From IMG/VR virus record IMGVR_UViG_2778261559_000026: a DNA stretch of 31,691 nucleotides. The stretch is one strand, 5' to 3'. The position numbers are program-made. The DNA comes from a virus (Duplodnaviria > Heunggongvirae > Uroviricota > Caudoviricetes). Below, in pieces: positions 27,901 to 30,900 of this stretch. Every line of letters starts with the position of its first letter. Positions within the stretch are counted from its first letter, which is position 1.

Positions 27901-30900
27901 CATCGTGAAGCACTGATCGCGGCTGGCTTTGGTGTTGACGGTAAACTGCCTAACGGCATTCGTAAAGCAATCGACCGCGTTAAACCTGCTAAAGACGTTG
28001 CAGTAGACCACATCGTTACCTTTACCGTTAAGAACTCTTCTGAACTGTTCCACCTGGTGATTGCTGGTGATACTGCTATCGTTTCCGCTCCTAACATGGA
28101 TTTTCAGGATACCGCTGATTGCCAGATCACCTTCGGTCGTCGTAAAGAAGTTACCGGAAAAGCTAAACTGAACTTCACTAAATCCGGCAATCCTTATTTT
28201 TCTGTATTCTTTAACAGCCACGCTACAGAAAAAGAAGTAGTAGAAGTGGTTGCGTATGAAGGTGAATTGAAAGAACGCATTGAATCTTGTGAAGCATTCC
28301 TGGAACTGGAAGCACAGGTGAATGCTGTTTCTCCGCGCTTTACTTCACTGGAAGAAAAAGACCAGATCATCGAAGCACAGAAAGCTGAGATTGAAAAACT
28401 GAAAGCTGCACTGGAAGAAAAAGACCAGATTATCGAAGCACAGAAAGCTGAGATTGAAGAACTGAAAGCTAAAGAAGTTGCTCCGGTGGCAGTAGTTGAA
28501 AACGCGGCTGATGAGGCCGCAAATGATGAAGTAGAAGTGAAAATTGATGTGATGCGCGATCCGATGGCTGCATTAAACTTGCTTCGGTCCTTCAAGGGAA
28601 AATCCTATTTCTCTAGTGATGTAGAAGACGAGGAAGAACAGAAACGCAATACTGCAATGCTTCATGATGAAATGTACGGTACTAACTTTTCTTACTGCCA
28701 ATAAAAAAGGGACTCCGAAGAGTCCCTAGTAAGTTTAGGTTAGGTTTGCACAACAAAGATGAGGTTATAATGAACATAATGCTACATTATTCTTTAAAGC
28801 CAGAAAAATAACCGCCCCCTTCGGGGCGGGAGGATTAATACTCAATCTATACTTGTTATGTTTTTGTGTTGTATGATCACTGATTATGAAAACACTGTAC
28901 TGGAGTGTGTTTTTATGGCTTTTAATCGGGAATCCTCAAAGAAGATCCCCTGTTAATAACCATAAGGAGAAAAGGCAGATTACACTATTATTTAGTATCC
29001 TTTTTACAGCAACTAAAAAGAATAAACAAAAAGAAGCATACCCAGCCGTAAGGCGTACCGATTAGAAATTTGAAAAACACCACCAGCGATATAAAAATCA
29101 ATTTAATGCCAGCGACGATAGTCAAAAACAGCAGAGTAGCAAAGTAGACCAAAAGATCCATAGATAATCCTCTTTGAAAACGACCATCATCTATAGTTCA
29201 ATTCATCGATTTAATTAATGATACTTGAAAGCGTTACACACAGCAGAAATGCCAATATGTGCCAGTGAATATACGATAGTTAATCCTACAGTAAGATAAA
29301 TCAAAAATTCAACCATAGGTAAATCCTCAAATAAGAAAAAGGTTAGCGGGGGGTGATTCCCCCCGTAGACGTTGACCAGCTCAACATCTTTCATACATTT
29401 ATTTATAACGCGTTTTAAGACACATCAAATTCATCGTCTTCTTCTGGTTCTTGTTCCGGTTCATCCATTAATGGTAATTCTTCTTCCTGGTCTTCTCCCA
29501 AATCTGCATTTTCGAACAAGTCCCCTACTTCATTTAAACGACGCTCGATGATCTCCCTTAGCTTATTCTTCAATGTTTTCTGATCAGTGGCAGATTCGAG
29601 AATTTCTAAAGCGTCGATTGTGGCGATCTGCAAAATAGTCTGTTTCACCTTTCCGCAATATTCCGCTAGTTCCTGTTCTACATACCCGACCGGAATAAGC
29701 AGATTCATTGCCTCCTGGTTCTCTCGTTCGGCTGCATCCGCTAATGCTCTCTCACGGCGTAATTTTTCTACGTCGATTTGTTCCCTGATAGAAGTGTTTT
29801 TTAACGGGTTAATGATGTTCTTTAGGACCCAATCACATCCTTCTTTCGCCGGGACACGTCTTGTATTTGTGTTATAAGGTAGACCCCTTTCTATCCATCG
29901 CTTACCGCCACCATTCAATGAATAGCCGTATAAACGGGAAATTTCTGTAAGGGTTAATTCTTCTTTCATTGGTTATCCTCCATTAAATTTGCGTAATTTT
30001 ATTTATTGGTTTTACGCAAAATCTAAGCGCCTAAATCGCATTCTAACGAAGGGAAAGATCCAGTAATGGTAAGGGTTAGGAAGGGGGGTTAATAGTCGCG
30101 TAGCGACCGCGCCATGAGTGAAGTGATCACGTTTTAAAATCTCACACGCACATCAAATACCGGGGTGCCGAAAACTCCCTTTATTTCATCCGTGGAACAG
30201 TACCTTTTTAATTTGTCAAGCATTAATTTCTTAATTTAATTACTAAATCTCATCCCAATAATTGAAAAAATATCAAAAATCAATAAAGTAAGCATCTAAA
30301 AGTCAGTCCATACCAAAAGAGGTATAAAATGAAAAACATTATCGCTGCTATCGTGCTTTCTGCTACTGCTTTCGGTGCTGATGCTGCGTCCTTTGATTGC
30401 ACTAAGGCTATAACCAAATCAGAGAAGTTTATTTGTGCTAATGAGTCAATCTCCGCACTGGATTCTAAACTTCATGAAGTATATGTTAAGGCTGTTAAGA
30501 TTGATCCGTCTCTTAAACAAGAGCAACGCAACTGGAATAAAACTGTTCGTGATACAATGATCAATATCGGGCAGATTCAGCCACTGGAGGCTGTATACAA
30601 CGCTCAAATCCAAAACTTGATGAATGTATTATCTAAAGAAGAAACCGCGTCAGAGAGCGTTACAGATGATTCTGCAAAGGTTGAAGAAGAACAACCGAAA
30701 CAGGAAGAAGTAAAGAAACTGAATGTTACCGCGATTTACGCATGTACTGCAAAATTTACATGGAATGTTATCGATGGTGAGGAAACAGAAGCTGTAAAAG
30801 ATTACTTATACGGAAACAAAGATCATGATGATAAAGGCGGTAAACTTAAAATCAAACTGGTAGATGATGTTCCTGTGTCTTTTGTTTACACCGACAAATA

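What the first reader, a model, noticed from the sequence alone, without database searches (positions are those of the whole stretch)
29970..30120. Candidate cos/packaging region upstream of the Nu1-like terS
In lambda the cohesive-end site and the small-terminase binding sites lie just upstream of Nu1. Here the same position has a 9-bp-arm inverted repeat (TTTGCGTAA-N15-TTACGCAAA, 29988-30020) and a GC-rich symmetric segment (GTCGC-GTA-GCGAC within AGTCGCGTAGCGACCGCGCC, about 30094-30113) embedded in AT-rich DNA.
Basis: inference. Interest (0 to 1): 0.35.

Follow-up and report, generated by a model that had tools for sequence, protein, structure and literature searches.

The report
Probable terminase recognition region of prophage
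The stretch just upstream of a lambda-Nu1-like small terminase gene in this E. coli prophage is a conserved non-coding module that is swapped between related prophages together with the terminase's DNA-binding domain, so it is most likely the site where the phage's DNA is recognised for packaging. This is an ordinary kind of element in an uncharacterised phage lineage, and the cut site itself is still unmapped.

Summary
Both motifs are at the stated coordinates: a 9-bp inverted repeat (29988-29996 / 30012-30020) and a GC-rich 5-3-5 dyad (30094-30113). Neither exceeds chance on composition alone.

Comparative evidence shows function. About 250 bp upstream of the terS-like gene (29970-30222) is as conserved as coding DNA. 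The GC dyad is invariant in every E. coli locus recovered whose held sequence reaches the site, and in three Salmonella loci. The 9-bp repeat is perfect in only about a fifth of loci.

The gene is Nu1-like (hhalign to lambda Nu1, 95% probability). TerL is gpA-type but lies 6.2 kb away, across a replication-like region. That layout is conserved in Salmonella and Proteus relatives.

Natural recombinants exchange one cassette, from about -170 upstream to terS codons 10-80. The dyad type follows the terS recognition helix and not the TerL type, as with lambda/21/N15 cosB plus the Nu1 5' end. The dyad sits where lambda R3 sits.

I found no lambda-like cosN, no IHF site and no contig ends at the site.

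Verdict: partly supported. This is probably a cosB-like recognition cassette. The nick site is unresolved and may lie upstream, at 30160-30179. The inverted repeat is more likely promoter-associated. Interest is modest.

The parts
29415..29969 (-). Nu1-like small terminase (terS) gene, 184 aa. It has an N-terminal winged-HTH (about residues 4-55), a long helical middle part and an acidic C-terminal tail ending EFDVS.
   Evidence: ORF. phrog_57 'terminase small subunit', E 1.7e-10, residues 23-166. Sub-threshold but collinear Pfam Phage_Nu1 hits in 10 of 17 family members. hhalign of the family profile against lambda Nu1: 95.3% probability, E 2.2e-8, residues 4-91. AF2 model with pLDDT 72. None of the five other ORFs screened in the stretch between terS and TerL matches a terminase family; the Rha/Ant-like ORF was the only one with any match.
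29970..30140 (-). Non-coding part of the type-specific cassette, proposed as the cosB-like TerS recognition region. It is exchanged between lineages together with the 5' end of terS.
   Evidence: Pairwise identity profiles. Window vs L138 is 90-97% identical upstream of -185, 40-60% from -176 to +235, then 90-100%. L031 vs L136 and L138 vs L139 switch to over 90% at -155 to -167. Two weak E. coli hits, which I take to be type-2 copies (not inspected), match only query positions 1-96 (= window 30225-30130).
30090..30113 (.). GC-rich dyad core. In terS orientation it reads GCGCGGTCGCTACGCGACTATTAA, at -144 to -121 from the ATG. It is the most conserved non-coding element and the proposed principal TerS-binding site, at the position of lambda R3.
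   Evidence: Its type tracks the terS recognition helix and not the TerL type. Lambda R3 lies at -140 to -121 from the Nu1 ATG.
30062..30087 (-). C-rich 'CCCTT' boxes between the core and the GATCTTTCCCTTCGTTA block. TAACCCTTAC at 30069-30078 is repeated exactly inside terS at 29947-29956. These are candidate accessory TerS sites.
   Evidence: D3, D5; 5 matches with up to 1 mismatch against 1.7 expected. A CCCTT/CCTTT box is present at about -105 in all type 1 and type 2 lineages.
29988..30020 (.). The 9-bp-arm inverted repeat TTTGCGTAA-N15-TTACGCAAA. Its loop and right arm carry TAAATAAAATTA (29994-30005, minus strand), 36 nt before the terS ATG. It is probably a promoter or operator element.
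   Evidence: I5. Variants. The same motif class sits 35 nt before the TerL ATG.
30128..30222 (-). Upstream block present in all lineages and recombining independently of the cassette: CTTGACAAA, AGGTWCT, an extended dyad, and CGTGTGA..TTTTYAAAAC.
   Evidence: Alignments A1, A2 and A4. Conservation 0.83-0.94.
30160..30179 (.). Extended dyad GGGAGTTTTCGGCACCCCGG, at -210 to -191, flanked by an A-tract and a T-tract. It is a candidate nick site (cosN-equivalent position) or a bidirectional terminator.
   Evidence: Flagged as terminator-like on the + strand. Dyad symmetry is kept with different sequences in the Salmonella and Proteus lineages and in L139 (z -1.2 to -3.3 in five variants), is absent in E. 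coli L134 (z -0.09), and is weak in E. coli A/B (z about 0.2). Lambda cosN lies at -190 to -179.
21256..23163 (-). gpA-type large terminase (TerL), 635 aa, 6.2 kb downstream of terS.
   Evidence: PF05876 at 192 bits and PF20454 at 152 bits. phrog_15, E 6e-137. RefSeq homologue annotated 'terminase gpA endonuclease subunit'.
23187..23198 (-). TAAATACCTTCA motif 35 nt upstream of the TerL ATG, inside a TerL leader that is conserved in all lineages including Proteus.
   Evidence: (A5).

Best explanation
The about 250 bp upstream of the Nu1-like terS gene (window 29970-30222) form the DNA-packaging recognition region (cos) of a temperate siphovirus-like prophage integrated in hicB.

Proposed mechanism. 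Small-terminase molecules bind through their N-terminal winged-HTH to type-specific sites in the 170 bp next to the gene. The main site is the GC-rich dyad at 30090-30113, and the CCCTT boxes may be accessory sites. This anchors the gpA-type TerL, which is recruited through the conserved acidic C-terminal tail of terS. TerL then makes staggered nicks nearby, most plausibly at or just upstream of the cassette boundary, around the dyad at 30160-30179. Packaging then proceeds towards terS.

The 9-bp inverted repeat next to the start codon most likely belongs to the terS promoter or operator and not to the terminase sites.

Shown: the motifs exist; the region is conserved; terS is homologous to Nu1; TerL is gpA-type; the upstream DNA is co-inherited with the terS DNA-binding domain, independently of TerL.

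Inferred: that the co-inherited DNA is bound by terS, that the phage uses cohesive ends, and where the nicks fall.
For: (1) terS identity. phrog_57, E 1.7e-10. Collinear Phage_Nu1 matches in relatives. hhalign to lambda Nu1, 95.3% probability over residues 4-91 including the wHTH. It is the only terS candidate found in the prophage.

(2) TerL is gpA ATPase plus gpA nuclease, well above the Pfam cut-offs. To my knowledge the characterised members of this family (lambda, 21, N15, phi80) make cohesive ends; PMC4669245 describes lambda, 21 and N15.

(3) Conservation. Non-coding columns 29970-30222 score 0.74-0.99 identity across 21 distinct E. coli/Salmonella sequences, equal to or above the terS coding region, with the maximum at the GC dyad. 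Homology stops at about 30225, where different morons follow.

(4) Natural recombinants.
- Lineages with recognition helix LN(AA/GGG)K(K/R)W carry CGGTCGCTACGCGAC. These are E. coli A and B and Salmonella L030, L031 and L136.
- Lineages with (P/Q)AV.KW carry GCAC(G/A)CTC(T/C)A(G/C)AACGAGCT. These are L134 and L137-L139, with L026 carrying a diverged form. Proteus has a third version.
- TerL is uncoupled. L138 TerL is 99% identical to the window's but has a type-2 cassette. L031 TerL is 57% identical to the window's and 95% to L026's, but has a type-1 cassette.
- The left mosaic boundary recurs at -165 to -180 in three independent pairs. The right boundary falls inside terS, after the start of the HTH.
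- P0065 (L136) and P0028 (L137, L138) are chimeric proteins whose N-terminal domain matches their upstream DNA type.

(5) This is what was built experimentally for lambda-21 and lambda-N15 hybrids. [quoted passage not shown]

(6) Geometry. The dyad core lies at -144 to -127, against lambda R3 at -140 to -121. The upstream dyad lies at -210 to -191, against lambda cosN at -190 to -179.

(7) The region is not a structured RNA. There is no credible Rfam match and the fold z-score is +0.29.
Against: - There is no direct evidence of DNA ends. None of the about 60 true homologous loci from IMG/VR, JGI metagenomes, Logan or NCBI begins or ends in the region. No sequenced phage is close enough to transfer end data: the best TerL match is 43% identical and there are no terS or DNA matches in the phage collection.
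- Co-inheritance of adjacent DNA and the 5' end of a gene is also what physical linkage alone produces. There are only three cassette types, so the helix/site correlation rests on few independent events.
- E. coli types A and B differ in the recognition helix (GGGKR vs AAKK) yet share the identical core.
- There is no lambda-type cosN, no similarity to lambda cos, no IHF consensus site in the cassette and no clear set of three R repeats.
- terS and TerL are 6.2 kb apart, unlike lambda.
- The motifs are not statistically unusual by themselves.
- The copy in this window is a deletion derivative lacking lysis genes, so this particular site may never be used.
Confidence: 0.55

Rival explanations
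1. The region is only a transcriptional control region. The conserved block holds the promoter and operators of the terS (late) transcription unit. The HTH protein, or another phage regulator, binds the dyad and the inverted repeat to regulate expression. The cassette would then be an 'immunity-like' regulator-plus-operator module, not a packaging signal.
For: - terS is the first gene of the minus-strand unit and the neighbour is divergent, so a promoter must lie in 29970-30328.
- The inverted repeat encloses TAAATAAAATTA 36 nt before the ATG, and the same motif class lies 35 nt before the TerL ATG in a leader conserved in all lineages.
- A regulator-plus-operator cassette would show the same co-inheritance.
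- The N-terminal domain is a MerR/Xis-like wHTH. The top Foldseek hits (BmrR, BldC, RacA, excisionases) are not significant. HTH_17 hits are weak.
Against: - The protein matches small-terminase profiles beyond the HTH: phrog_57 over residues 23-166, Nu1 HMM positions 74-133, and hhalign to residue 91.
- It ends in a conserved acidic tail, as TerL-binding terS proteins do. No other terS was found in the prophage.
- The consensus scan finds no sigma-70 promoter on the minus strand here.
- A promoter function and a packaging function are not exclusive. In lambda, R1 also abuts Nu1.
Confidence: 0.25
2. The GC-rich dyad at 30094-30113 is itself the nick site (cosN). The flanking variable blocks are then the TerS-binding sites.
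For: - The dyad is GC-rich and dyad-symmetric like cohesive-end sites. It is invariant between E. coli A and B, whose recognition helices differ.
- It is flanked on both sides by segments that differ between A and B.
Against: - L138 has a TerL 99% identical to the window's but an unrelated sequence at this position. L031 and L026 have 95%-identical TerLs but different sequences here.
- In the lambda group, cosN is shared among phages whose cosB differs (PMC4669245).
- At -144 to -127 it sits at the R3 position, not the cosN position, of lambda.
Confidence: 0.15
3. The region is a pac site for headful packaging. terS binds here and TerL makes an imprecise first cut, followed by headful cuts.
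For: Recognition by terS near or in its own gene is common to pac phages (PMC4669245, introduction). There is no evidence of cohesive ends here.
Against: TerL has both gpA-family domains at high score, and the portal is lambda-family (PF05136). The characterised gpA-type terminases I know of cut at cos (own knowledge; PMC4669245 describes lambda, 21 and N15).
Confidence: 0.07
4. The motifs are chance features of an AT-rich intergenic spacer with no function.
For: The shuffle tests are unimpressive: inverted repeat 4%, GC run 20%, and 0.54 dyads expected.
Against: The region is near-invariant across E. coli and Salmonella lineages whose flanking genes differ and whose terS genes are only 68% identical.
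Confidence: 0.03

Closest known systems
Lambda-group cos (cosQ-cosN-cosB) with Nu1, and the lambda / 21 / N15 packaging-specificity units
   Same: - The site lies directly upstream of a Nu1-homologous terS. TerL is gpA-type and the portal is lambda-family.
- The control region is about 200-250 bp.
- The type-specific part plus the 5' end of terS (recognition helix) behaves as one exchangeable unit, while the upstream part and TerL are interchangeable.
- The main candidate site is at the same distance from the start codon as lambda R3. A single dominant site resembles the 'simple' cosB of N15 (PMC4669245).
   Different: - There is no sequence similarity to lambda cos and no GGGCGGCGACCT-like cohesive end.
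- There is no IHF consensus and no obvious R3/R2/R1 triplet.
- The candidate site is a short dyad, not an asymmetric R sequence.
- terS does not overlap or adjoin TerL. It is separated from it by about 6.2 kb holding an iteron-bearing, replication-like region.
- terS does not reach the Pfam Phage_Nu1 gathering score.
P2/186-type arrangement, in which terS (M) and terL (P) are not adjacent
   Same: The small and large terminase genes are in different places of the genome of a cos phage (own knowledge).
   Different: P2 terminase proteins belong to other families. There the separation is by head genes, not by an early or replication region. I did not test for similarity.
Phage repressor-operator immunity cassettes
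   Same: An HTH domain and the adjacent non-coding DNA are exchanged together between related phages.
   Different: The protein here is homologous to small terminases over more than the HTH. It carries a terS-like helical core and an acidic tail.

Membership tests
Lambda-type cos site | Lies immediately upstream of a Nu1-family small terminase gene in a genome with a gpA-family TerL | tested here: met
   terS at 29415-29969(-) is homologous to Nu1. TerL has PF05876 and PF20454. TerL is, however, 6.2 kb away and not adjacent.
Lambda-type cos site | 12-nt 5' cohesive-end sequence related to GGGCGGCGACCT (the 'lambda-like phages' as defined in PMC4669245) | tested here: not met
   With up to 3 mismatches there are 6 matches in the window against 9.4 expected, none of them in 29970-30330. 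The local alignment to lambda cos scores 17 against 17.5 in shuffles.
Lambda-type cos site | cosB with TerS-binding R repeats and an IHF site between R3 and R2 | tested here: inconclusive
   There is no WATCAANNNNTTR match with up to 1 mismatch inside 29970-30223. Only short CCCTT-type repeats and one 10-bp repeat, TAACCCTTAC, are present. One dominant dyad sits at the R3 position. N15 shows that a simple cosB with one site exists (PMC4669245).
Lambda-type cos site | Specificity resides in cosB plus the TerS recognition helix, independent of cosN and TerL | tested here: met
   The cassette type follows the recognition-helix type in 11 haplotypes of 3 types and is uncoupled from the TerL type. 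This is correlative only.
Lambda-type cos site | Virion DNA ends (staggered nicks) map to the site | not testable with these tools
   No reads or virion data are available. No contig or record end falls in the region.
Nu1-type small terminase (Pfam PF07471) | Score at or above the Pfam gathering threshold (30 bits) | tested here: not met
   The window protein has no hit. Relatives score 16-23 bits.
Nu1-type small terminase (Pfam PF07471) | Homology to lambda Nu1 including the N-terminal wHTH | tested here: met
   hhalign gives 95.3% probability, E 2.2e-8, residues 4-91 against Nu1 2-109. A PDB profile search lists 1j9i (the Nu1 DNA-binding domain) and other terS chains at E 0.07-0.5. phrog_57, E 1.7e-10.
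Nu1-type small terminase (Pfam PF07471) | C-terminal segment binds TerL | not testable with these tools
   Only a conserved acidic tail ending (E/D)EF(D/E)(V/L/I)(S/I) is seen.
Headful pac site | TerL of a headful-type family; permuted, terminally redundant DNA | tested here: not met
   TerL is gpA-type. DNA structure could not be tested.
Sigma-70 promoter / operator | Recognisable -35 and -10 hexamers with 16-18 bp spacing on the terS strand | tested here: not met
   The scan gives no minus-strand site between 29970 and 30330. A -10-like TAAAAT lies in the loop of the inverted repeat, and a shared motif lies upstream of TerL, so an atypical or activator-dependent promoter is not excluded.
Known structured RNA (Rfam) | Match to a covariance model, or a stable conserved fold | tested here: not met
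   In 25900-30400 there is no match except a chance-level hit elsewhere. The fold z-score is +0.29. The inverted-repeat arms show no double compensatory changes.

The most novel reading that the evidence does not exclude
This uncharacterised Enterobacteriaceae prophage lineage may use a cos system whose recognition module is a freely exchangeable cassette. That module comprises a short dyad-type TerS site plus the Nu1-like wHTH. It is physically uncoupled from the gpA-type TerL by the phage's replication region. On this reading, one TerL type works with at least two unrelated recognition cassettes (and vice versa), and the nick site is defined by position relative to bound TerS and not by a TerL-specific sequence. 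That would be a cos architecture different from the lambda paradigm in sequence, site design and gene order.
Probability: 0.3. Interest if true: 0.45.

Novelty: new member of a known kind. Interest (0 to 1): 0.3.

Why it matters
If confirmed, this gives the packaging signal and specificity determinants for a widespread prophage family with no cultured representative in the collections searched. The family is present in 63 of 5426 complete E. coli genomes and also occurs in Salmonella and Proteus.

The natural recombinants offer a ready-made test of how far terS/cosB specificity and TerL nicking can be mixed in gpA-type terminases.

Practically, it tells annotators where the genome ends should be set, and which 170-bp segment would make a plasmid or satellite packageable by these phages. 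It is not a new principle, because the lambda/21/N15 work already established this logic.

Tried and rejected
- **Close sequenced phages with known ends.** There is none. Megablast of the region and tblastn of terS against 50,697 phage records gave nothing. The best TerL match is 43% identical, in Escherichia phage DCP80, whose first 14 kb look like a foreign module in a T4-like record and carry no terS or core.
- **Contig ends as a proxy for virion ends.** IMG/VR loci are prophage predictions. The 35,485-bp Logan contig ends 388 bp upstream of terS inside a moron, not at a cos-like site. The exact-pattern scans of viral and metagenome contigs returned the same prophages plus chance 17-mer hits, and no contig starts near the core.
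- **Genome contigs.** The protein-based scan confirmed nothing. A degenerate-motif scan returned only chance hits in AT-rich genomes.
- **Literature on a hicB-integrated prophage.** Nothing relevant turned up. The LF82 paper mentions hicB only as a moron.
- **Structured RNA.** Rejected.
- **Foldseek of the terS model.** No significant hit, only MerR/Xis-like wHTH proteins at E > 0.6.
- **IHF site and lambda cosN.** Both absent.
- **cos next to TerL or in the 1.3-kb gap.** The TerL leader is AT-rich and looks promoter-like. The gap holds iterons typical of a replication origin. Neither is excluded experimentally.
- **Extra copies of the region elsewhere, such as satellites mimicking the site.** None found. 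There is one place per genome, always unannotated intergenic DNA, and two genomes have two places.
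Full report
**1. What the window is**

The window is an E. coli-type chromosome segment carrying a prophage inserted in the 3' end of hicB. The truncated hicB 5' part is at 31341-31691(-), and the remaining hicB fragment lies at about 902-1021. The host gene ydcR is to the left. hicA and yncJ lie to the right in the homologous O55:H7 DEC5A locus.

The prophage carries the following genes:
- a large serine recombinase at 2537-3949(+);
- tail genes;
- a protease-capsid fusion at 17115-19121(-);
- a lambda-family portal at 19167-20678(-);
- a gpA-type TerL at 21256-23163(-).

The finding (29970-30120) lies directly 5' of it, in a 359-bp divergent intergenic region shared with an LprI-like moron at 30329-31108(+).

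**2. The observation**

Both motifs exist exactly as described. The 9-bp inverted repeat has arms at 29988-29996 and 30012-30020. The GC-rich 20-mer with the 5-3-5 dyad is at 30094-30113.

Neither is statistically remarkable alone:
- the inverted repeat appears in 201 of 5000 shuffles of the intergenic region;
- an equally GC-rich 20-mer appears in 406 of 2000 shuffles;
- 0.54 dyads of this kind are expected by chance.

**3. Is the gene a small terminase?**

The evidence says yes.
- Pfam finds nothing for the window protein.
- PHROGs gives phrog_57, 'terminase small subunit', at E 1.7e-10 over residues 23-166.
- Ten of 17 family members give sub-threshold but collinear Phage_Nu1 hits. Residues 5-71 align to model positions 3-64, and residues 57-115 align to positions 74-133.
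- A family profile aligns to lambda Nu1 with 95.3% probability, E 2.2e-8, over residues 4-91, covering the wHTH.
- A PDB profile search lists the Nu1 DNA-binding domain (1j9i) and other terS chains weakly.
- The family is confined to E. coli, Salmonella and Proteus.
- No other terS candidate was found in the prophage.

TerL carries both gpA domains well above threshold. To my knowledge the characterised members of that family make cohesive ends; PMC4669245 describes lambda, 21 and N15.

**4. Unusual gene order**

terS is 6.2 kb from TerL. The stretch between them holds small genes on both strands, a Rha/Ant-like gene, and a 1.3-kb gene-free gap with five to seven iterons (TTTTGCCCCTGAAA, 26725-26846, 21-22 bp apart). 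This order is conserved in Salmonella and Proteus relatives whose terS is 51-68% identical to the window's.

**5. Conservation**

I aligned 21 distinct E. coli and Salmonella sequences. The non-coding DNA from 29970 to about 30222 is as conserved as the terS gene or more so. The maximum (0.986) is at the GC dyad. Beyond about 30225 homology ends, and different morons follow.

The 16-mer GCGGTCGCTACGCGAC is exact in every E. coli locus recovered whose held sequence reaches that position, and in Salmonella L030, L031 and L136.

The inverted repeat is weaker:
- the perfect 9-bp form occurs in 13 of 67 loci;
- the right arm (ATTACGCA) is nearly invariant;
- the left arm varies (TGTGCGTAA, TGCGCAG, TGCGAAG);
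- there are no double compensatory changes.

The region is not a known or stable RNA.

**6. Natural recombinants**

This is the main evidence. Three cassette types exist.
- Type 1: recognition helix LN(AA/GGG)K(K/R)W with the core CGGTCGCTACGCGAC.
- Type 2: recognition helix (P/Q)AV.KW with GCAC(G/A)CTC(T/C)A(G/C)AACGAGCT.
- Type 3: the Proteus version.

TerL type is independent of cassette type.
- L138 has a TerL 99% identical to the window's but a type-2 cassette.
- L137 has the same cassette as L138 with a TerL 82% identical to L026's.
- L031 has a type-1 cassette, with terS and core identical to L030. Its TerL is 95% identical to L026's and only 57% identical to the window's.

Sliding identity profiles place the mosaic boundaries. 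The left boundary falls at -165 to -180 from the ATG in three independent pairs: window/L138, L031/L136 and L138/L139. That corresponds to window 30134-30149. The right boundary falls inside terS, between +30 and +235.

Proteins P0065 and P0028 are chimeras whose N-terminal domain matches their upstream DNA.

Two E. coli genomes, which I take to be type-2 copies (not inspected), match only the upstream 96 bp of the region.

The upstream DNA and the terS DNA-binding domain thus stay together while everything around them is exchanged. [quoted passage not shown]

**7. Geometry compared with lambda**

Positions are relative to the small-terminase start codon.

| Element | Lambda | This prophage |
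|---|---|---|
| Nick site | cosN at -190 to -179 | dyad GGGAGTTTTCGGCACCCCGG at -210 to -191 |
| Main TerS site | R3 at -140 to -121 | GC-rich core at -144 to -127 |

The upstream dyad has A-tract and T-tract flanks and is present in all lineages. Its symmetry is kept with different sequences in the Salmonella and Proteus lineages and in L139 (z -1.2 to -3.3 in five variants). It is absent in E. coli L134 (z -0.09) and weak in E. coli A/B.

Because the core follows terS and not TerL, I read the core as an R3-like TerS site. The nick site is more likely at or left of the cassette boundary. This placement is inference only. The upstream dyad could equally be a bidirectional terminator.

**8. What argues against a lambda-like cos**

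- There is no sequence similarity to lambda cos.
- There is no lambda-type cohesive end anywhere in the region.
- There is no IHF consensus in the cassette.
- There is no clear R triplet. There are only CCCTT boxes, plus a 10-bp repeat TAACCCTTAC at 30069-30078 and 29947-29956.
- E. coli types A and B differ in the recognition helix but share the core.
- Linkage alone can explain co-inheritance of adjacent segments.
- No virion, record or contig end maps here.

**9. The inverted repeat**

Its loop and right arm contain TAAATAAAATTA, 36 nt before the terS ATG. The TerL leader is conserved in all lineages including Proteus, and it has TAAATACCTTCA 35 nt before its ATG. terS is the first gene of its strand, so it needs a promoter in this intergenic region. 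I therefore consider the inverted repeat more likely to be part of a promoter or operator than a pair of terminase sites. The consensus scan, however, finds no canonical sigma-70 promoter.

**10. Verdict**

- The region very probably contains the terminase recognition site of this prophage family, a cosB-like cassette (confidence about 0.55).
- A purely transcriptional role is the main rival (about 0.25).
- The element is a new member of a known kind. The only unusual aspects are the physical separation of terS-plus-site from TerL and the free reassortment of the two.
- The copy in this window belongs to a prophage that has lost 4.9 kb, including its lysis genes, so here it is probably a relic.

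Noticed in passing
window 26725-26846 (gap 26084-27394): There is an array of 5-7 direct repeats, TTTTGCCCCTGAAA, at 21-22 bp spacing. It lies in a 1.3-kb gene-free, AT-rich gap between divergent genes and looks like an iteron-type replication origin. The search found 5 matches against 0.33 expected.
   Followed up: partly
window 26416-26889 and 27748-28704; L001, L029-L032, L136, L137: Relatives carry different iteron sequences in the same gap: CCTACACTA, CCCCGGATTCC and ATCCCTAGCTT. The iteron type goes with the class of the neighbouring 309-339-aa coiled-coil protein. The window and DEC5A are about 98% identical elsewhere but not alignable at exactly these two segments. This suggests an origin-plus-initiator specificity cassette.
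   Followed up: partly
window ~3828-3830: Relative to the O55:H7 DEC5A prophage, this copy lacks 4.9 kb (L002 25585-30517). The missing part holds the C-terminal quarter of the serine recombinase, the endolysin and lysis genes, and about 2 kb of the tail-tip gene. The prophage in the window is therefore probably defective.
   Followed up: yes
window ~902-1055 and ~31341-31370: The prophage is inserted in the 3' end of the antitoxin gene hicB, next to a large serine recombinase gene. The HicB reading frame continues into phage DNA for a few codons (…ELARRIGNPNVVNPK*). Relatives sit at other sites: next to a 2-hydroxyacid dehydrogenase gene in Salmonella and some E. coli.
   Followed up: partly
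window 23164-23250; A5: The 85-bp TerL leader is highly conserved in all lineages, including Proteus (…CCCGTATTTATCAAAAT…TTAATAAATACCTTCAT…GTAATGAGGGTAATTA-ATG). TerL thus seems to have its own conserved control element, separate from terS.
   Followed up: partly
window 21256-29969: terS and TerL are separated by about 6.2 kb of early or replication-like genes in alternating orientation, including a Rha/Ant-like gene at 24416-25315. This order is conserved in E. coli, Salmonella and Proteus relatives, which is unusual for a gpA/Nu1-type terminase.
   Followed up: partly
window 30329-31108 and the equivalent position in L026, L029, L030, L036, L134: The gene between the terS control region and the attachment site is a variable moron slot. 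It holds an LprI-like secreted protein here, and unrelated ORFs of 101, 104, 190, 204 or 397 aa in relatives.
   Followed up: no
L038 (PQ671644.1, 1-14000): The closest TerL in the phage collection (43% identity) lies in the first 14 kb of 'Escherichia phage DCP80', a 141-kb record classified as T4-like. It is preceded by 1.3 kb of non-coding DNA full of short GC hairpins with TTCG loops, similar in style to window 26300-26600. The record may be a chimeric assembly.
   Followed up: no
window 26185-26205 and 26565-26585; 26300-26330: GGAGGGCTTTGCCCGACTG occurs twice in the gene-free gap. Several short GC-rich hairpins with TTCG loops (cccttcggg, gcaaccttcggttgc) lie nearby. Their function is unknown.
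   Followed up: no
window 17115-19121: The major capsid protein is fused to an S78 prohead protease domain in a single 668-aa ORF (PF04586 + PF05065).
   Followed up: no
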